From a virus (taxonomy: Duplodnaviria > Caudoviricetes), in the IMG/VR virus record IMGVR_UViG_3300016476_001378: 64,000 bases of DNA; one strand, 5' to 3'. The position numbers and the translations under genes were made by a program. The notes under the pieces are model-generated. The model was not told where the DNA came from and made no database searches. It saw only the letters and a list, made by a program, of their open reading frames with translations. How positions within the stretch are numbered: the first letter of the stretch is position 1; the number at the start of each line of letters is the position of its first letter. Below, piece after piece: positions 2,886 through 41,447 of the stretch.

Positions 2886-3188
2886 CTAAGGTGTGTAAGG
2901 TGGCACACTAGTAAATGGAATTATTAATATTGTGCCAGGATAAAGGGTACTGCTTGTTAATTTATTGTAATCATAGATAAGAGAAGCAGAAGTCCCATAA
3001 CCCTTTTTAATCCAATAATTTGCGATGGATGACAAAGAATCTCCTGATGACACTTTCCATTTTGTGGTAGAGATAATAACCTGAAAATTATTGCTCTGTA
3101 CTGATTCTTTTGGAGAATCTTGAGGAGCTGCGAAAGATGGAGCAGAAACTAAACAAAGCAAACTTAAAGCTAAAATGATCTTGTGCAT
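2886..3188 (-). CDS. Secreted LysM-domain protein
   Basis: Likely start MHKIIL (3188), signal peptide, LysM motif WKVSSGDSLSSIA...IYDYNKL...LYPGTILIIP. Confidence 0.8.
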   Translation of the reverse strand: MHKIILALSLLCLVSAPSFAAPQDSPKESVQSNNFQVIISTTKWKVSSGDSLSSIANYWIKKGYGTSASLIYDYNKLTSSTLYPGTILIIPFTSVPPYTP

Positions 3189-3259: not shown

Positions 3260-3988
3260 ATGGAAATCATAAGAAAAATCAATGTTATAATACCAATGGC
3301 GGGGCGGGGCAAAAGATTTGAGGACGAAGGTTTCTCAGTCCCAAAGCCTCTGATTAGTGTTAATGGCAAACGAATTATAGAAAGAGTTGTAGAGAATTTA
3401 AATTTATCTGCAAATTACATTTTTGTTGTTCAAGAATCACATAGAAAAATTTATGATTTAGACAAAGTGTTAAAAGACATTGCTCCTGATTGCAAAATAA
3501 TCAGCACAGACGAAGTCACAGAAGGTACAGCCTGTTCAGTTTTACTTGCAAAGAATTTAATCAATAATGACAATCCTCTTTTAATTTGTAATAGCGACCA
3601 GGTTTTAGAATGGGATGCCAAACATTTCGTCTCTTCTGTAATGAAAGAAGGAATCGACGGTGGGATTGTTACTTTTAAATCTAGTGGAAATCAATGGTCT
3701 TTCGCTCAGGTGTTAAATGGTGTTGTCACCAGAGTTGCGGAGAAAAACCCTATTAGCGATAATGCTACAGCTGGTGTTTATTGGTGGGACAGAGGTTCTG
3801 ATTTTGTTATTTTAGCAGAACAGATGATTCGTTTAAATGATAGAACCAATGGTGAATTCTATGTTTGTCCTGTTTATAATTATGCTATAAATGATGGCCT
3901 CAAAATTGTTAATTACGAGATAGAAAAGTTCTGGAATCTCGGAACCCCAAAGGATTTGGAAGTTTATCTTTTAAATCATAATGTATGA
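3260..3988 (+). CDS. Sugar nucleotidyltransferase (dTDP-glucose pyrophosphorylase-like)
   Basis: IIPMAGRGKRF...PKPLI, GTACSVL, EK, LGTPKDL motifs. Confidence 0.85.
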   Translation: MEIIRKINVIIPMAGRGKRFEDEGFSVPKPLISVNGKRIIERVVENLNLSANYIFVVQESHRKIYDLDKVLKDIAPDCKIISTDEVTEGTACSVLLAKNLINNDNPLLICNSDQVLEWDAKHFVSSVMKEGIDGGIVTFKSSGNQWSFAQVLNGVVTRVAEKNPISDNATAGVYWWDRGSDFVILAEQMIRLNDRTNGEFYVCPVYNYAINDGLKIVNYEIEKFWNLGTPKDLEVYLLNHNV

Positions 3989-4680
3989 GTGACAAAATTC
4001 GGGTTGGAATAGTTCTCACGGGCATTTCGCACGATTTAAGTGGTAGTATTTTAAGTGGCTGGGGCCAATCTGTCAAAAGAACTTTTAGAACTTATTATCA
4101 TAACTTCTTTGATTACATTTATAACCCAATAAAAGAGACATGTGATGTTTCTATTTATTTGACAACATACAATAATGGGGTCGAGGACGAATTATTAAGA
4201 GTCTATAAGCCTGACAATTATGTATTTTTAAATCCCGAAAACAGTAAAATGAGAAAAACTTATTTAATAAGTATTTTTTCTGTTATGCAATTTGCAAAAG
4301 ATGTAGATATTTTTGTATTTACAAGATTCGATGTTGAATTTTATAAAAAATTTACAGAATTAGATGTGGATTTAAATAAAATTAATTTTTTATTTAAAGA
4401 AATTTGGTCATCACCAGAGAATACAGAAACCAGTGACGTGTTATTTGTTGTTCCGAGGCCATTAATTGTAGAATTTTTGGCTGGTGTTCAAAAATGTGAT
4501 GAAGAGCCTAGAAGACTTGACTGCAATGGTGATTTGCATGATTTGTATGACAAATTATCACAGATGATAGGGGAAGATAAATTACATATTATTTCAAAAG
4601 TCCCACAGCATAGTGGAATTAGAAATGTTTATTTTGATTTGGCTAAAAATCAACAACCAAGGGAGATAATAAAACAATGA
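3985..4680 (+). CDS. Hypothetical protein, possibly glycosyltransferase-related
   Basis: TRFD motif; translationally coupled to the nucleotidyltransferase. Confidence 0.5.
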   Translation: MSDKIRVGIVLTGISHDLSGSILSGWGQSVKRTFRTYYHNFFDYIYNPIKETCDVSIYLTTYNNGVEDELLRVYKPDNYVFLNPENSKMRKTYLISIFSVMQFAKDVDIFVFTRFDVEFYKKFTELDVDLNKINFLFKEIWSSPENTETSDVLFVVPRPLIVEFLAGVQKCDEEPRRLDCNGDLHDLYDKLSQMIGEDKLHIISKVPQHSGIRNVYFDLAKNQQPREIIKQ

Positions 4681-5208: not shown

Positions 5209-5601
5209 ATGCTTGAATGTCCTATTGAATTAACAGATGGTGCTATAGAGTTTATCTCAGACTTATTATCTCAACAAGAAGACCCACAAGATCTTTATCT
5301 TAGAGTTTATGTGTCTGGTGGTGGTTGCTCGGGGCTTCAATACGGCATGGCACTCGATACAGTTCTTGACCCTGATGATACCACTTATAAGTTTAAAGAC
5401 ATTCAGATTGTCTTGGGCGCTATGGATGTTAAATATTTAAATGGGGCGATTATCGATTACATTGACCAGCCAATGGGCGGCGGTTTTAAAGTTACAAATC
5501 CAAACGCAGTAAAATCTTGCGGGTGTGGTAGTTCTTTTTCTGTAGAGGACGATGAATCTGGTAAAACTTTAACAGGTGGATGCGGTAGTTGTTCAAGATA
5601 G
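5209..5601 (+). CDS. erpA: Iron-sulfur cluster A-type carrier (HesB/IscA/ErpA)
   Basis: LRVYVSGGGCSGLQY and NPNAVKSCGCGSSF. Confidence 0.9.
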   Translation: MLECPIELTDGAIEFISDLLSQQEDPQDLYLRVYVSGGGCSGLQYGMALDTVLDPDDTTYKFKDIQIVLGAMDVKYLNGAIIDYIDQPMGGGFKVTNPNAVKSCGCGSSFSVEDDESGKTLTGGCGSCSR

Positions 5602-5726: not shown

Positions 5727-6026
5727 ATGGAATGCAAGTGTGAGCTTGTTGAAATCCAAAACGGTGAATGGTTTGTTGCATTCAGCGAATGTATTAGGGG
5801 CTACCAACTCTTTGGCCCTTTTAAATCCAAAATGGAAGCAAGCTATTATGTTCAGGAATATTTCCCACGCTTTACAAAGATGTACAGCGTGATTGATTTT
5901 GAACACCCCATGCATAGAGAAAAAGTTATTTCGATAAAGGGGCCGCCTTTTAGGGAGCGGCTTTGGGATTTTGAAGATTACAAAGCCATGGCCTGGCGCA
6001 ACGCAGGCTTCAGATCAAGAAAATGA
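5727..6026 (+). CDS. Hypothetical protein
   Basis: 99-aa ORF with GGAG SD. Confidence 0.55.
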   Translation: MECKCELVEIQNGEWFVAFSECIRGYQLFGPFKSKMEASYYVQEYFPRFTKMYSVIDFEHPMHREKVISIKGPPFRERLWDFEDYKAMAWRNAGFRSRK

Positions 6027-6203
6027 TCAACAGATTCAATGGGGAATCTAGTTGATTTTTTTATCTTAAAAACCATTCTTTAGTTCTATAAGAGTGTAAG
6101 ATTTTCTGTTTTTTGGACCCCCATATAGAGGTATATTATAGTATATCTTAATATCAATTAGGGATTTGGAAACGATAATCTATTAGAACTAAAAAGAAGG
6201 TCT

Positions 6204-12785: not shown

Positions 12786-13634
12786 TTAATAGAGGCCCCA
12801 GAAAGGCCAACTTCCATTATAAGCAGGAGTTGGGCTACCAGAACAGATGTTAAAGCCAGCAGCAGCGCCAGTATTTGTTCTAAATGTACAGGCTGGTACT
12901 GAATAATCTGCACTTGTTGGACAAAGCGCAAGAAATTGCTTTACATTCATCCATTTAGCATGGCCATCTGCATAGGCAAATGTCAATCCATCTGAGTGCG
13001 GGGCATTGTTCTTATCTGGTGTGCCATTTGGCATCAAATAAGTAGTCCAAGACTCACGCAAGGCGGCTGGCCAAAGCACACTACTGGAGCTAATGTACGA
13101 GAAGCTAACCTGATTACGAAGCTCCATCATTACCCATGTGTCAGCAGGAGTTTGAACGCCTGCGAGAGTGCCACCTAGGAAGCTAGGATTTTCGCCAGAA
13201 GGGTTAATTGGACGACCACTAAGGGAAAGGTTCATAGCGTAACCATCGCCCTTGTATTCGCCATTTACGTTCCATGCTTCAACATCACGGGTACGAGATG
13301 GACAGCGGAAAATGTTTGCATTCTTGGTATAAGGCAAAACCCAAGCTGGCCACTTATAATGGTTGATGCGTGTAGCAAAACCACCAGTCGCATTTGGGTT
13401 GAGAGGGGAAGATGATGCCCAGTAATCAGCACGAGGATAGTTCTCATCATAATCCTGTGCATACATAAGGAGGCCTAGACCGACCTGCTTCATGTTGGAA
13501 AGACAAGATGTTTGACGAGCCTTCTCACGGGCCTGAGCAAATACAGGGAAAAGAATAGCTGCGAGAATCGCAATGATAGCGATAACTACTAGAAGTTCGA
13601 TGAGTGTAAAAGCACTCTTCTTGGAATTTGTCAA
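12786..13634 (-). CDS. Prepilin-type N-terminal cleavage/methylation protein, DUF1559 / H-X9-DG family
   Basis: SA|[39 protein letters not shown]; FRCPS; [15 protein letters not shown]; TTG start with GGAG SD. Confidence 0.92.
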
Positions 13635-13737
13635 TTTATTCTCCTAAATTTTTTAATTATTTATTAATAATTCCACACTGAATTATCGCTCTTAACACAA
13701 ACATATAATATTATAAATTAATTTATTAATATTAAAA

Positions 13738-14319
13738 TTAAATTAATTTTATCGTAGACACAATGCTTTCTATTTGCTTTTGTCTCTCAAGAAGTTTGAA
13801 ATAAAATAATAAAGTGTTTTTTGCATCATTATCAGCTCTATGTGGCTCGCCAATAAAAGATAATTTAAATCTTCCCATTGCTGAAGACAAACCGCCTTTG
13901 AATGACTTATTTTGAGCCTGCATTAAGAATATATAGAGTTGTTTAACATCTAATTCTCTTCTGCCAAAATAGGGGAAATGAATATTAGATTCCTTGAATT
14001 CTTTGATGAGACAAGTGATATCCCCAGCACCCCATGTGACCGGATTTACAAAGCACTGATATTTGTTTATGATTGTAGAAAGTTCACTAGCAACTACATC
14101 TAAGGAAACAGATTTCTCTTTAATGTCTGAATTTTTGATACCTGTAAGATCTGTTATGAAAGGATATATATATTCGCCAGGATCTATCAGCCATTCTTTG
14201 GTTAGGATAATGCCAGCATTCAAATTACCAACTGAAATGCCAACTTGAATAATTTTAGGGTTGGGAGTCGAATTATCTGAACTATTATTTAATTCAAGAT
14301 CAAGAGAAATGTAATTCAT
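13738..14319 (-). CDS. DEDDh 3'-5' exonuclease (DnaQ/KapD-like)
   Basis: SLDLE, LTGI, TWGAGD, HRADNDA. Confidence 0.85.
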   Translation of the reverse strand: MNYISLDLELNNSSDNSTPNPKIIQVGISVGNLNAGIILTKEWLIDPGEYIYPFITDLTGIKNSDIKEKSVSLDVVASELSTIINKYQCFVNPVTWGAGDITCLIKEFKESNIHFPYFGRRELDVKQLYIFLMQAQNKSFKGGLSSAMGRFKLSFIGEPHRADNDAKNTLLFYFKLLERQKQIESIVSTIKLI

Positions 14320-14367
14320 AATACTATTATAGTGTAATTAATTTATTTTTAAGACAAAAATGGGGCC

Positions 14368-15873
14368 TTATTGGGGCCCCATTTTATTTACCTCTTCTAG
14401 AAAGCTTAAAGCTGACCTGATTAAATCATACCTTTCGGTATAAACAGCTTGCTTCATGATGTCAATTGGTGAAATAACTTCGCCACTAAGAACCGCCTTC
14501 AAAATAGAAGGAGAGCAACCAGAAACAAGACAAGTGCCTGTATCATGAATTGTCATAGGAACATTTGCAGCTCCATTAACATTCCAGAAAATAAGATCTG
14601 GCATCTTGTAATTATACTTAGCATAATTCTTTTTGATTTGTTCAAAATTGGTTCTACTATTTGAATTACATGCTTGATCAAATTGCATATCAGAAACGAT
14701 AAAGATCTTTTCTGGCATGTCTTCTGGTGCAACACTATCAGCCTTTGCAGCCTTAAGAATGCTCTTGAATACAGCAACCAAGTTTGTATTATAACCCCAT
14801 TCAGCTTGTTTAAGATTATTGGTCTTATCTACAATTGTGTGACCAATAATGGTTTGCATTTCTGGAGCTTCAGAAAATGTAATAAATTTATTTTTCCATA
14901 CTCCAGAATTTTTCTCAGCTATATAAATTGCCAAAGAAATACTAACATCAATTGGCCTAACATTTCCATTGGCCAACATCATGGATCCAGATGTGTCCGC
15001 TACAACTAAACCTTTGAATGATTTACCTTCCATGTAATCTGGAAGATTCTGCCAAAGAGCTTGAAGAGCAAGTTCTTCTGTTGGATCAACACGGCCATAA
15101 GTTTCCCTTACCTTTTCTACAATTTCATAAGGATAAAGTGCAGAAGCATTAACTTTATTTTCAAGCTTTACAGCTGAAAGCATAAATTGATTATATCTCT
15201 CAAGATCATGTTTCATGAATGACTTGCGATACATCAGGCCAGCCTTGGAAGGGACCTTAGAATAATCAATTTCTGACCAATTATTTGAGCACATTTTATG
15301 CTCTACAAGGTCAATCTTCTTGCGAAGCTTGCTAAGCATTAAGCGGTATTCTTTTTCAGAAAGACCTAAGCGCTTTGCAAATTGTCTTCCAAGAGACTTG
15401 GTCGCTTTTGAAGAAGCATTGATAGACGGCATCCACTTGGCCAAAAGTGATGGATGCTCTGTTTCTGGGTCGTTGTCATGATTCAATTTTGATATAACAA
15501 AATCTACTACACGATTCCAGTCAATACAGCCATCAAGCACGAAGAGATCATCCCAGCGCCCATAAATAGGTACTAAAGGAATAATTGCTTGGCGAATTTC
15601 AAAAGGTGTGTTGAGAAGAAGATGGCGAAATACTTTTCGCTCACCCTGACCGCCACGAATGTCTCTGCTGTTAAACAGGATACGAAGTGCAGTTTCAGGA
15701 TCTTCTTCTAAAGCTCTAAGATAAAGAGCTGTAATGGCATCTGGATCTGTTCTAGATGCAGAAATCTTACCAAATAGATCTACATTAAGATCTAAAGTGG
15801 ATTTATAAGCTTTGGCCCCATTTGTAGTTTCAGTGGAATTAAGTTGTTTTTCCAAAGCATAAATAAAAGACAT
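14368..15873 (-). CDS. DUF2828 family protein (Ro60/TROVE-like helical domain plus vWA)
   Basis: TTNGAKAY, RDIRGGQGER, YGRWDDL, AKWMPS, IDYSKVPS; vWA MIDAS DTSGSM, WGYNTN, SDMQFD, FWNV, VSGCSP. Likely start ATG 15873 (GGAAAG SD). Confidence 0.88.
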   Translation of the reverse strand: MSFIYALEKQLNSTETTNGAKAYKSTLDLNVDLFGKISASRTDPDAITALYLRALEEDPETALRILFNSRDIRGGQGERKVFRHLLLNTPFEIRQAIIPLVPIYGRWDDLFVLDGCIDWNRVVDFVISKLNHDNDPETEHPSLLAKWMPSINASSKATKSLGRQFAKRLGLSEKEYRLMLSKLRKKIDLVEHKMCSNNWSEIDYSKVPSKAGLMYRKSFMKHDLERYNQFMLSAVKLENKVNASALYPYEIVEKVRETYGRVDPTEELALQALWQNLPDYMEGKSFKGLVVADTSGSMMLANGNVRPIDVSISLAIYIAEKNSGVWKNKFITFSEAPEMQTIIGHTIVDKTNNLKQAEWGYNTNLVAVFKSILKAAKADSVAPEDMPEKIFIVSDMQFDQACNSNSRTNFEQIKKNYAKYNYKMPDLIFWNVNGAANVPMTIHDTGTCLVSGCSPSILKAVLSGEVISPIDIMKQAVYTERYDLIRSALSFLEEVNKMGPQ

Positions 15874-15889
15874 TTTTGTTTTTCTTTCC

Positions 15890-16115
15890 AAGATGATTTT
15901 TGTTTAAATTTCAAGTTTAAAGTTTTATTTGCTGAATCATCTTTATTTGTTTTGGGTTTTGCTCGTTACTAGATAATTTTTAATTGTCCTTAGTAATTGT
16001 AATCGCTGAATTATCTTGAGCGGGGTGGTGCAGCTTTGCATTAAATTACGAGATGGGTTTTGCTCAGCTGCACCGATCTTTATTTATGTTTTATAAAGAG
16101 TTGCTGAACCATCTC
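15890..16115 (-). ncRNA. Array of three CAGC-bulge hairpin units upstream of the DUF2828 gene
   Basis: Units 15890-15943, 15971-16016 and 16050-16115; each AGATRRTT-CAGCRA...inner hairpin...complementary arm, with compensatory changes between units; TATAAT at 16122-16127. Confidence 0.7.
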
Positions 16116-16211
16116 ACTATTATTATAGTACTAAAATTCTCATTTCAGCACTAAGCAATAATTAATTTCCTTACATTCTTATAGAATAAAGGGGCCTAAT
16201 TTTAAGACAAA

Positions 16212-16241
16212 AAAAGATGGCTGTATTTCAAGCCATCTTTT
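16212..16241 (-). terminator. Intrinsic terminator
   Basis: aaaagatggct/agccatctttt stem after the DUF1559 pair. Confidence 0.7.
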
Positions 16242-16261
16242 AGAAACGGTGCTAAAATTAA

Positions 16262-17170
16262 TTAGCGAACTGGGTTGCCAAACTGGTCAAGAACAGGCAT
16301 TCCACCAGCGGTGTATACAGACTTACCCCACATAAAGTTGTTTGGATTAACAGTCTGCTCAAACTTCATCCACTTTGAGTGGCCGTCAGAGAATGTATAG
16401 GTTGCACCACCTGCATGGCGATCTGGTTGCATGTAAGCAATCTGAAGAGCACCACCAGCGTAACCTGGAGCCTTACATGTAGCCCATGCTTGAGAAGCAA
16501 GCGCAGGTGTGACAGCATAAACAGCTGAAAGGCTAGGAGCAAACTGTGAAGAATCTTCACCCTTCCATGTTCCACCAGAAACACTGGTCATAAAAGCATT
16601 GGTTGATCTATGGCTCTTATTTACATAAGCTCCACCACTTGTTCCAGCATTTGATGTGTCATTGATACAAGCGAGTGTATTTGTCATCTCTGCGATAACA
16701 ATAGTGTCAGCTGGTGCGTCAAGAGCAGCAAGAGTGGTAACATTTGCTGGGTCGATAGAACGACGTTTGCGTGGGAGTACTGCTGCATTTGCAACATAAG
16801 AAATGCGTGGGGCTTGATTATCAAGGCCAGGATTTGTTGGAGGAACACCCTTGTTTGGGTCAGAAGGGCAAACGAACAAAGCAGTGTTCTTTACATAAGG
16901 CTGAATTAAGCCTGACCACTGATTGTAGCCATTAGCGCCATTGAGGTCATTTGCATACCAGTAAGCCTGTGGGTATGTTTCATCGTAGTCTTGTGCATAC
17001 ATGGTGATACCAAGGCCCATTTGCTTGGTGTTTGAAAGGCAGCTTGTTTGGCGAGCCTTGTCACGAGCCTGTGCGAAAACAGGGAAGAGGATAGCGGCAA
17101 GAATTGCAATGATTGCAATGACTACGAGAAGTTCGATGAGTGTAAATGCACTCTTCTTAGAATTGTTCAA
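16262..17170 (-). CDS. Prepilin-type DUF1559 / H-X9-DG protein
   Basis: SA|[28 protein letters not shown]; FVCPSD; [15 protein letters not shown]; likely TTG start at 17170. Confidence 0.92.
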
Positions 17171-17252
17171 TTTTATTTTCCTTTTGTTTTGATTTAAAAT
17201 CAAATTATTATTGTGTTTATTTGATGAGTTAAGATTAAGTAAAAATTAAATC

Positions 17253-18089
17253 TTAAAGACAAGGGGCCTCTAATGGTGAATCTTGGAATGGAACAGGATA
17301 CCAATTTGCACCCCAAAGAAAATTATTAGGGTCTATAGTTTGCTCAACACGATACCACTTAGCATGACCATCAGCAAAGGTGTAATTGGCACCACCGGAA
17401 TGACGGTCCCATTTGACGCGAATCAATTCTGGCTTCTTGTCACTGGTGGCAGAAAGTCCAGTCACCATGTCACTCATGGTTGTAAGTCTATAAGAATCAC
17501 CAGGGCAGATTTGGCCAGAACCTAAAGTAGAACCACGGGACGTGCTAGTAGCATACAAGCCGCTTACACCCTTCCACTGCCCAATGGTTGCACCGCTATT
17601 TAATTTATTTCGACGCTCGCCAAGAACAATCAAATTTGCAGGAGTTTCAAAAGCAGCTTCTGTAGGTGGCAGCCAGTCATGGGCTGGAATTACATTGTAA
17701 TTATTCACATAAGAGAATTTTGGCACCTGAGCATCACAATTGACACCAATGATAGAGTTGCCTGTACATGGCAACTTTGGTGTCACAGGGGCCGGATCAG
17801 AAGGGCATACAAAGATGCCAACATTCTTAACATAAGGCTGAAGTACCCATGACCAGTGAATTTTTAAAATAGGGTCTTCAGAAGTGGTTTGCATCAATGT
17901 GCCATCGTAGTCTTGCTGATACATGTTAAAAGCAACACCCAACTGCTTCATGTTGGATAAGCAAGATGCGGCTCTAGCTTTATCTCTAGCTTGTGCAAAA
18001 ACAGGGAAAAGGATAGCTGCGAGTATTGCGATGATTGCAATAACTACAAGAAGTTCAATTAGCGTAAAAGCGCTCTTAGAGTTCTTCAA
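17253..18089 (-). CDS. Prepilin-type DUF1559 / H-X9-DG protein
   Basis: SA|FTLIELL...; FVCPSD; [15 protein letters not shown]; TTG start with GGAG SD. Confidence 0.92.
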
Positions 18090-41071: not shown

Positions 41072-41447
41072 CGGACCCGGGCGGACTCGAACCGCCGTCT
41101 TACGTGCATCTTAAAAAAGCATCTACAAGCTTAGTATAAATTTTAATTTAATTAAAGAGGCCCCTTTATACTAGGTTCTCATTAACTAGCCCTGCTATAC
41201 TAATTGTTAATCTTAGAGCAGCAAATTAACAATTGTCAGCTATAAATAACGCAGAATTTCAGTCTAGCTGAAAACTTCATTCCACGGCTGAGTTAAATAC
41301 TCAGGCTGCGATCGCATACGCAGAAGCGTTGCGAGCTGTTGCAAAGTTATTGTTTGCATTTATTGTTTTCTTCGGGTTTAACGAGGCCACCGAACACCTC
41401 GACTTGCAGCTTAATCTCCCTGCCCGCAATCTACTCCAATCGAGCCC
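41072..41447 (-). ncRNA. ssrA: tmRNA; tag ORF 41357-41301 encodes ANNNFATARNASAYAIAA
   Basis: 5' GGGCTCG pairs with 3' CGGGTCC including G3-U70; T-arm GGCGG-TTCGAGT-CCGCC; ATAAAT-GCA resume context; tag ends in AA. Confidence 0.93.

What the first reader, a model, noticed from the sequence alone, without database searches (positions are those of the whole stretch)
14368..16127. Ro60-like DUF2828 gene headed by an array of covarying CAGC-bulge hairpins with anticodon-loop-like tips
Minus-strand RNA in order: GAGATGGTT-CAGCAAC-[TCTTTAT-AAAACATAA-ATAAAGA]-...-AACCCATCTC; AGATAATT-CAGCGATTAC-[AATT-A-CTAAGGA-C-AATT]-AAA-AATTATCT; AAGATGATT-CAGCAAATAAAAC-[TTTAAA-CTTGAAA-TTTAAA]-CAAA-AATCATCTT; then the SD and ATG. 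Outer stems differ by compensatory changes while the unpaired CAGC is invariant, the pattern of a repeated protein-binding element. Two apical loops fit the 7-nt anticodon-loop pattern C-U-NNN-R-A (UGA, Ser; AAG, Leu with G37); the third only weakly (CAU-AA). Known: Ro60/TROVE-vWA rings bind Y RNAs through a bulged stem, and bacterial Y RNAs mimic tRNA and are encoded next to Ro. Inference: an RNP in which the DUF2828 protein binds or processes array units that display anticodon mimics (decoys for anticodon nucleases, or RNA-repair adaptors), possibly with autoregulation. I cannot tell whether this motif is already catalogued.
Basis: partly seen in the sequence, partly recalled or inferred. 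Interest (0 to 1): 0.88.

Follow-up and report, generated by a model that had tools for sequence, protein, structure and literature searches.

The report
Ro60-like protein with handle-RNA leader
A bacterial gene for a ring-shaped Ro60-like RNA-binding protein is preceded by three small folded RNA modules sharing one docking "handle". The same protein-RNA pairing flanks this gene family in about a hundred distant bacteria and phages, and I found it neither in Rfam nor in the papers I could search.

Summary
The 245-nt leader of the DUF2828/DUF7788 gene (14368..15873, minus strand) carries three modules, each a 7-9 bp closing stem followed by unpaired CAGC(A/G)A. A covariance model finds only these three in the 64-kb window.

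- **Protein fold:** the model's top 12 PDB matches are all Ro60/TROVE structures, aligned over the whole length.
- **Recurrence:** the handle (AAGRY-stem, 2-3 nt, CAGCAA ... stem-CUUG) lies on the gene strand beside 97 of 120 DUF2828 genes and never inside them. Stems covary. In relatives many modules enclose tRNA-like T and D arms, as in YrlA Y RNAs.
- **Ribosome-binding site:** in every relative of 48% identity or more where a handle was found upstream, the last handle ends 11-18 nt before the ATG, touching the site.
- **Anticodon-like loops:** enriched but a minority, 19 of 108 short modules against 0.6 expected. Here only module 3 (CUUGAAA) is convincing.

Best reading: these are partner RNAs, analogous to Y RNAs, of a Ro60-like protein, co-transcribed with it, with probable translational autoregulation. 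Binding itself is untested.

No Rfam family reaches its cut-off. The build matches dictyostelid Class I RNAs. This scan has already noted the same pairing in many phages and giant viruses. This copy sits among ordinary bacterial chromosomal genes.

The parts
16122..16127 (-). -10 box TATAAT; the transcript probably starts at 16118-16115, right at handle 1
   Evidence: Read directly. The box is invariant in the nine leaders of the clade. No RNA data were available.
16050..16115 (-). Module 1: handle stem (16115-16107 with 16059-16050, one bulged C), CAGCAA at 16106-16101, inner hairpin 16099-16077
   Evidence: R1 match at 27.4 bits, E 1.4e-3, although not in the training set. The inner hairpin shows compensatory changes in the clade.
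16027..16074 (-). 9-bp helix GGUGCAGCU/AGCUGCACC whose loop holds the 3' strand of handle 1. This gives either a pseudoknot or an alternative fold.
   Evidence: Present in the MFE fold. Eight pairs are invariant in nine relatives, so covariation says nothing for or against it.
15971..16016 (-). Module 2: 8-bp handle, CAGCGA at 16008-16003, poorly structured variable interior
   Evidence: R1 E 1.8e-6. One handle pair covaries A-U to G-C in the clade. The interior differs even at 90% protein identity.
15890..15943 (-). Module 3: 9-bp handle, CAGCAA at 15934-15929, apical hairpin 15921-15903 with the 7-nt loop CUUGAAA (15915-15909)
   Evidence: R1 51.9 bits, E 6e-9. Three pairs of the apical stem covary. 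In relatives the loop reads CUUGAAA or CUUCAAA.
15884..15889 (-). SD-like GGAAAG, starting one base after the handle-3 stem
   Evidence: Read directly. In every relative of 48% identity or more with a handle upstream, the last handle ends 11-18 nt before the ATG, mostly as CUUG-GAG.
14368..15873 (-). Ro60-like protein gene (DUF2828 + DUF7788/vWA, 501 aa; MIDAS motif DTSGSM at 293-298)
   Evidence: Pfam E 4e-33 and 2e-51. AF2 model with pLDDT 69. The top 12 Foldseek hits are all Ro60/TROVE, E 9e-8 to 9e-5, TM about 0.5.
14356..14382 (-). Intrinsic terminator (8-bp GC-rich stem, 7-nt loop containing the stop codon, then a T run)
   Evidence: Read directly. This makes the leader plus gene a monocistronic unit.
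13738..14319 (-). DEDD (RNase T-type) exonuclease gene with its own -10 box; its link to the system is uncertain
   Evidence: Pfam RNase_T 1e-10. It is kept downstream in the 9 closest loci, sometimes with a PASTA-domain gene in between, and is absent from all more distant loci.

Best explanation
The gene encodes a Ro60-type protein: a HEAT-repeat ring plus a vWA domain. Its 5' leader is a co-transcribed array of three partner RNA modules, analogous to Y RNAs.

Each module offers the same docking handle: a 7-9 bp helix formed by the module's two ends, followed on the 5' strand by single-stranded CAGCAA, with a conserved unpaired G after the 3' strand. The interior of each module is free to vary and carries the cargo. 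Here the cargo is a clade-specific folded domain (U1), a nearly unstructured stretch (U2) and an anticodon-arm-like hairpin (U3).

By analogy with Ro60 on Y RNA, the protein binds the handle. Because the third handle ends one base before the ribosome-binding site, a protein bound there should block its own translation, giving negative feedback.

Shown here: the anatomy, the fold, the co-occurrence, the covariation and the position next to the SD. Inferred: binding, feedback, and whether modules are cut out as separate RNAs.
For: **Fold**
- The top 12 PDB matches are all Ro60/TROVE structures over about 500 columns.
- The MIDAS residues are invariant.

**Specificity in the window**
- The three units are the only strong CM matches in 64 kb.

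**Association with the gene family**
- CAGCAA occurs 617 times on the gene strand of the fetched loci and 65% of those have a 7-bp handle. The figures are 27% on the other strand and 25.5% for permuted hexamers.
- 97 of 120 loci have a unit in the flanks and none has one inside the gene.
- All 26 CM hits in 530 kb of genome loci lie on the gene strand.
- In three whole genomes, 14 of 35 matches to a sequence-only 5' handle pattern fall at the DUF2828 locus.

**Structure and position**
- The stems covary: 5 of 6 core pairs change on both sides.
- Relatives' modules hold tRNA-like T and D arms and score 39-42 bits on Rfam YrlA.
- The handle sits next to the SD in two otherwise unrelated leader types.
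- No terminator is predicted between the promoter and the ATG.
Against: - There is no binding or expression data.
- The loci were collected through the protein, and units for the covariation count were chosen by requiring a stem. The pairing percentage is therefore partly circular. Searches are the unbiased controls.
- The structure model is only moderate (pLDDT 69, TM about 0.5). No sequence method links the protein to TROVE.
- 23 of 120 loci showed no unit under my strict pattern.
- In the window's MFE fold of U1, the CAGC pairs with a downstream GCUG.
- L107 has a handle 12 nt from the ATG but no SD, so occlusion cannot be the only reason for that position.
Confidence: 0.68

Rival explanations
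1. Anticodon display. It can be an added function rather than a strict rival. The modules present isolated tRNA parts on the handle, anticodon arms here and elbow or acceptor domains in relatives. They would act as baits or adaptors for proteins that read tRNA, such as anticodon nucleases, modification enzymes or repair enzymes.
For: - In 35 of 108 distinct short modules the best inner hairpin has a 7-nt loop, against 11 expected. 19 fit Y-U-NNN-R against 0.64 expected, and no shuffle of 200 reached that.
- The 7-nt loops have consensus C-U-N-N-N-A-A, whereas 6-nt loops do not start with CU.
- Such loops occur in about 11 separate lineages.
- G at position 37 occurs only where position 36 is G (2 of 2 against 0 of 6), as in real tRNAs (small numbers).
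- The U3 loop keeps CUU-AAA while its stem covaries.
- Phage relatives sit inside tRNA arrays.
Against: - Only about 18% of short modules qualify.
- In this window U1 has a variable 9-nt loop. The U2 loop is not conserved even at 90% protein identity.
- My shuffles do not preserve the 5'-pyrimidine, 3'-A gradient of the interiors, and some of the counted loops come from related loci.
- No nuclease or repair gene lies beside this copy, apart from a DEDD exonuclease of uncertain linkage.
Confidence: 0.25
2. The handles are processing or stability signals read by a general host factor, such as an RNase or a chaperone. They travel with the gene only because they shape its mRNA, and the DUF2828 protein does not bind them.
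For: - Hairpins at the 5' ends of mRNAs often stabilise them.
- Modules in phage tRNA arrays must be cut out by host RNases.
Against: - The same single-stranded CAGCAA and the AAG...CUUG frame are kept from Actinomycetota phages to Verrucomicrobiota MAGs, whose RNase sets differ.
- The handles cluster at the DUF2828 locus genome-wide.
- They also stand downstream of the gene, or as separate units, in many loci.
Confidence: 0.1
3. A cis-regulatory leader (riboswitch or attenuator) that senses a small ligand or a tRNA, or a repeat element of the MITE or REP kind.
For: The leader folds significantly better than shuffles. A 9-bp helix competes with, or forms a pseudoknot with, handle 1.
Against: - No terminator or anti-terminator pair was found, and no Rfam match.
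- The interiors change fast while only the handles are kept.
- The units are strand-specific and restricted to one locus. The loops are anticodon-like rather than codon-like.
Confidence: 0.04

Closest known systems
Ro60 (Rsr/TROVE2) with Y RNAs, especially bacterial and mycobacteriophage YrlA/YrlB (Rfam RF02553; Chen et al. 2014, PMC4201824)
   Same: - A ring-plus-vWA protein encoded next to, and on the same strand as, small modular RNAs.
- The RNA ends form a stem with a conserved 5'-strand motif.
- The variable module is often a tRNA-like T/D/acceptor domain.
- The fold match is full length.
   Different: - The protein is in Pfam DUF2828/DUF7788, not TROVE, and shows no sequence-level link to solved Ro60 structures.
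- The RNA motif is CAGCAA after a covarying AAGRY stem, not GNCGAAN0-1G.
- The window's modules have no tRNA-like domain and lie in the mRNA leader.
- YrlA scores reach only 39-42 bits against a cut-off of 69, and only in relatives.
- The published searches were limited to TROVE-annotated genomes.
Class I RNAs of dictyostelid social amoebae (Rfam RF01414; Kjellin et al. 2021, PMC7919456)
   Same: - About 60 nt, with a 6-bp terminal stem that covaries.
- The RNA starts AAG and ends CUGU.
- An unpaired motif ending in ACAGCAA follows the 5' strand, and the interior is variable and A/U-rich.
- The Rfam consensus reads GaUcuC-CUUACAGCAA...GagAuC-UG.
   Different: - They are eukaryotic, with their own DUSE promoter, and are reported to be unique to Dictyostelia.
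- The known binder is the RRM protein Rnp1A, not a Ro-like protein.
- The RF01414 model gives no match in the window at E<=10, and 13.7 bits against a cut-off of 41.5 on a relative's unit. Whole-genome scans give only noise-level hits.
Autoregulatory operators of RNA-binding proteins (ribosomal protein L1/S8 type, phage T4 RegA, MS2 coat protein); from general knowledge
   Same: A copy of the protein's RNA target is placed at its own ribosome-binding site, so that excess protein shuts off translation.
   Different: Here the feedback is inferred from position only, and the operator is one of an array of three.

Membership tests
Ro60/TROVE protein family | Ring of HEAT-like helical repeats closed by a vWA domain with a MIDAS motif | tested here: met
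   Foldseek ranks 1-11 and 13 (the top 12 listed) are all Ro60/TROVE over 504-581 columns, E 9e-8 to 9e-5, TM 0.36-0.51. DxSxS (DTSGSM 293-298), T363 and D395 are invariant. The model is of moderate quality (pLDDT 69).
Ro60/TROVE protein family | Sequence match to the Pfam TROVE domain or to solved Ro60 chains | tested here: not met
   Pfam gives only DUF2828 and DUF7788 at E<=0.01. A profile search of the PDB gives no Ro60 hit at E<=10.
Ro60/TROVE protein family | Binds Y RNA on the outer ring surface and misfolded RNA ends in the central hole | not testable with these tools
   Needs biochemistry.
YrlA Y RNA (RF02553) | tRNA-like T and D arms with an acceptor-like stem | tested here: not met
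   No YrlA or tRNA match in window 13500-17500 at E<=10. The motif is present in relatives' modules (L107, L016, L154), but at 39-42 bits against a cut-off of 69.
YrlA Y RNA (RF02553) | GNCGAAN0-1G motif near the 5' end | tested here: not met
   The units carry (N)NCAGCAA instead. The motif definition is from PMC4201824.
YrlA Y RNA (RF02553) | Encoded within a few kb of the Ro-type gene and on the same strand | tested here: met
Dictyostelid Class I RNA (RF01414) | Short terminal stem, then an unpaired 11-nt motif with T, C, C, A, A at positions 3, 6, 9, 10, 11; AAG start; CUGU end; about 60 nt | tested here: inconclusive
   C6, C9, A10, A11, the AAG start and a CUUG(U) end are met in U3 and in most units. 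T3 is met in GC-type relatives but not in the window's units.
Dictyostelid Class I RNA (RF01414) | Score above the Rfam cut-off (41.5 bits); DUSE promoter | tested here: not met
   No hit in the window. 13.7 bits on L007. Only control-level hits in three genomes. The promoter here is a bacterial -10 box.

The most novel reading that the evidence does not exclude
The CAGCAA handle is the docking site of a second, very widespread branch of Ro-type ribonucleoproteins. This branch is found in bacteria, hundreds of cultured phages and, per earlier notes of this scan, giant viruses. Its RNAs display detached pieces of tRNA, either anticodon arms or elbow/acceptor domains, as baits or adaptors in conflicts over tRNA. 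The orphan Class I RNAs of social amoebae would be its eukaryotic members. The chromosomal copy here would then be a domesticated, self-regulating version.
Probability: 0.3. Interest if true: 0.9.

Novelty: new variant of a known kind. Interest (0 to 1): 0.72.

Why it matters
Ro60 and its Y RNAs are a classic RNA-surveillance particle. Their bacterial roles are still unclear, and their known range is about 5% of sequenced bacterial genomes plus some mycobacteriophages (PMC4201824).

A parallel system, with a different protein family and a different RNA handle, would greatly widen that range. The protein has homologues in 711 cultured phage genomes, including Felixounavirus phages that grow on E. 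coli K-12 and Bron-like mycobacteriophages.

It would also explain unannotated gaps in phage tRNA arrays and provide tractable models. It would give the unexplained Class I RNAs a candidate protein partner. The leader arrangement seen here adds a simple, testable feedback design.

Tried and rejected
- **Rfam:** scans of the locus and of relatives found no family at its cut-off.
- **RF01414 over three whole genomes:** only hits at the level of the control genomes.
- **PDB profile search by sequence:** no Ro60 hit; only the fold search links the protein to Ro60.
- **Own genome:** not held, so I could not name the organism or search for further units. The neighbouring genes are ordinary bacterial ones: DnaK, ClpP, PurA, an ammonium transporter and tmRNA.
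- **DEDD exonuclease as a partner:** conserved only within the window's own clade and separable by a PASTA-domain gene, so left as uncertain.
- **PADLOC:** no defence-system match for the protein.
- **The 9-bp helix across handle 1:** invariant in the clade, so unproven.
- **Loop calling from MFE folds:** it collapses 7-nt loops, so I replaced it with an explicit stem-loop enumeration.
- **Weak CM hit at 3131-3184 (CAGAAA):** judged to be chance.
- **Literature:** searches for DUF2828, TROVE with phage, and Ro60 with phage found no description of this RNA.

Full report
**What is there**

On the minus strand, an invariant -10 box (16127..16122) is followed within 4-7 nt by three modules, then an SD-like GGAAAG (15889..15884) and the ATG at 15873.

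- Module 1 spans 16115..16050.
- Module 2 spans 16016..15971.
- Module 3 spans 15943..15890.

The 501-aa ORF ends inside a strong intrinsic terminator (14382..14356), so leader and gene form one transcription unit. No terminator is predicted inside the leader.

Each module is closed by a 7-9 bp stem made from its own two ends. The stem is followed on the 5' side by unpaired CAGCAA (CAGCGA in module 2). The three stems differ at two positions, with matching changes in the partner strand.

The leader folds better than all 200 shuffles, z = -3.6. A covariance model built from modules 2 and 3 plus 29 units from other loci (R1) finds the three modules in the 64-kb window. Module 1, which was not in the training set, scores E 1.4e-3. 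The only other matches are weaker (E 0.009, 0.08 and 1.6); the best of them is a CAGAAA variant before a sugar nucleotidyltransferase gene, and I take all three as chance.

**The protein**

Pfam assigns DUF2828 and DUF7788. No sequence method reaches TROVE or solved Ro60 chains.

An AlphaFold2 model from a 13-sequence alignment has pLDDT 69. Its 12 best Foldseek matches in the PDB are all Ro60/TROVE structures: Xenopus, human, Deinococcus Rsr and Thermus phage phiLo. They align over about 500-580 columns at E 9e-8 to 9e-5 and TM about 0.5. The next matches are isolated vWA domains.

The MIDAS residues DxSxS...T...D are invariant in the family alignment. Some mycobacteriophage records already label homologues "Ro-like RNA binding protein".

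**Is the RNA element tied to the protein?**

I fetched 152 loci encoding relatives, at 26-91% identity. Their upstream regions show the same frame: A-AAG-R-Y-NNN, then 2-3 nt, then CAGCAA, a variable interior, and NNN-R-Y-CUU-G. The stem sequences differ and compensate.

The units used for the covariation count (99.5% paired, 5 of 6 core pairs changed on both sides) were picked by requiring a stem. I therefore ran three tests that do not depend on that choice.

- **Hexamer test.** CAGCAA occurs 617 times on the gene strand and 310 times on the other strand. Permuted hexamers occur about 199 times per strand. 65% of gene-strand copies have a 7-bp handle, against 27% on the other strand and 25.5% for permuted hexamers.
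- **Strand test.** All 26 R1 hits at E<=0.01 in 530 kb of genome loci lie on the gene strand, nearly all just upstream of the gene.
- **Whole-genome test.** In three whole MAG genomes (7.2 Mb), a sequence-only pattern, AAGRY-N5-CAGCAA, matches 35 times. 14 of those matches lie inside the three DUF2828 loci, and the reversed control pattern matches 8 times.

Of 120 loci with a complete 5' end, 97 carry at least one unit in the flanks: 91 upstream, 23 downstream and none inside the gene.

**Cargo**

Of 223 distinct units, 57 contain a T-loop motif and 21 of those also a D arm. These are permuted tRNA-like domains in which the handle takes the place of the anticodon arm, as in YrlA. Rfam YrlA scores them at 39-42 bits, E about 1e-5, below the cut-off of 69 (L107, L016 and phage UPIE).

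In phage-type relatives the gene sits inside arrays of 13-20 tRNA genes, in some of them beside a tmRNA gene. The window's own modules have no tRNA-like domain.

- **Module 1** holds a hairpin that covaries within the clade. It also holds a 9-bp helix, GGUGCAGCU/AGCUGCACC, that encloses the 3' strand of handle 1. That helix is invariant in the clade, so it is neither supported nor refuted.
- **Module 2** changes its interior even between proteins 90% identical.
- **Module 3** carries a 6-bp stem with the loop CUUGAAA. Relatives have CUUGAAA or CUUCAAA on different, compensating stems.

**Anticodon-like loops**

I enumerated stem-loops in 108 distinct short units.

- The longest inner hairpin has a 7-nt loop in 35 units, against 11 expected from shuffles.
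- 19 fit Y-U-NNN-R, against 0.64 expected; none of 200 shuffles reached this.
- The 7-nt loops have consensus C(63%)-U(69%)-NNN-A(71%)-A(77%), against a background of 18% C and 27% U. The 6-nt loops do not show this pattern.
- The qualifying loops come from about 11 lineages. G37 appears only with G36 (2 of 2 against 0 of 6), as in real tRNAs, though the numbers are small.

The signal is real but covers a minority of modules. In this window it holds only for module 3. My shuffles do not keep the pyrimidine-to-A gradient of the interiors.

**How it probably works**

By analogy with Ro60, which grips the conserved stem and 5' strand of Y RNA (PMC4201824), the protein most likely docks on the handle, and the interior is cargo.

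The last handle ends 11-18 nt before the ATG in every relative of 48% identity or more where a handle was found upstream. This covers both the window's bacterial clade and a phage clade whose leaders are otherwise unrelated. The unpaired G after the stem is usually the first G of GGAG. A 55-kDa ring bound there should exclude the ribosome, so negative autoregulation is the simplest reading.

Binding, feedback and processing are all inferred.

**Context**

The window is ordinary bacterial chromosome. It carries DnaK, ClpP, PurA, an ammonium transporter, tmRNA and many prepilin/DUF1559 genes.

The family itself is mostly viral, with 711 cultured phage records. The DEDD exonuclease downstream is kept only in the window's clade. 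No defence-system model matches the protein.

**Comparison with known systems**

The closest system is Ro60 with YrlA-type Y RNAs. It shares the architecture, but the protein family and the RNA motif differ. The published surveys were restricted to TROVE-annotated genomes.

The handle is also built like dictyostelid Class I RNAs. The Rfam consensus for those reads stem-CUUACAGCAA...stem-UG. The paper gives an AAG start, a CUGU end, a 6-bp covarying stem and conserved C6, C9, A10, A11. The RF01414 model stays far below its cut-off here.

I found no paper describing the DUF2828-CAGCAA pairing.

**Earlier notes of this scan**

Earlier notes report the same pairing in many phages and giant viruses, and they gave me the Class I lead. 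I re-tested the fold, the association, the Class I resemblance and the loop statistics independently.

What this window adds is a chromosomal, monocistronic copy in which the array is the mRNA leader.

Noticed in passing
L153 (Escherichia phage adrianh, MN850614.1) 5232-5298, 5399-5456, 5854-5921, 5941-6065: Four unannotated handle units (AGAAGACC...ACAGCAA...GGTCTGG) fill gaps in the tRNA array just after the vWFA/DUF2828 gene of a Felixounavirus that grows on E. coli K-12. The last unit holds tRNA-like T and D arms.
   Followed up: partly
L154 (Mycobacterium phage UPIE, JF704113.1) 3955-4008, 4022-4143, 4157-4202: Three handle units lie in the 360-nt gap after gp53, annotated 'Ro-like RNA binding protein'. 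The middle unit scores 39.8 bits on Rfam YrlA, against a cut-off of 69.
   Followed up: partly
L119/L092 4660-5340; L106 4540-4649: The Rfam tRNA model matches 110-120 nt stretches in which a handle stem (3' strand, small loop, 5' strand, CAGCAA) seems to sit where the anticodon arm should be. This would be a circular permutation of the YrlA-like layout. ARAGORN does not call them tRNAs.
   Followed up: partly
L107-L109 2123-2989: Ten handle units in a row lie upstream of the DUF2828 gene of a freshwater contig. Two of them have full tRNA-like domains. The last handle is 12 nt from the ATG, but no SD is visible.
   Followed up: no
window 41072-41447 (-): tmRNA gene with the tag peptide ANNNFATARNASAYAIAA (ARAGORN).
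   Followed up: no
window 12786-13634, 16262-17203, 17253-18089 (-): Several paralogous genes with a prepilin N-methylation motif plus DUF1559 surround the locus. In relatives the upstream neighbour varies (a pilin-like gene or an SdhB-like gene), while the downstream order of DUF2828, exonuclease and pilin-like gene is kept.
   Followed up: partly
window 16054-16065 and 15953-15964 (-): GAGCAAAACCCA occurs twice: once as the 3' side of module 1 and once in the spacer after module 2. It may be a trace of module duplication.
   Followed up: no
window 3131-3184 (+): Weak R1 match (E 0.009) with a 5-bp stem and CAGAAA instead of CAGCAA, in the intergenic region before a sugar nucleotidyltransferase gene. 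Probably chance.
   Followed up: partly
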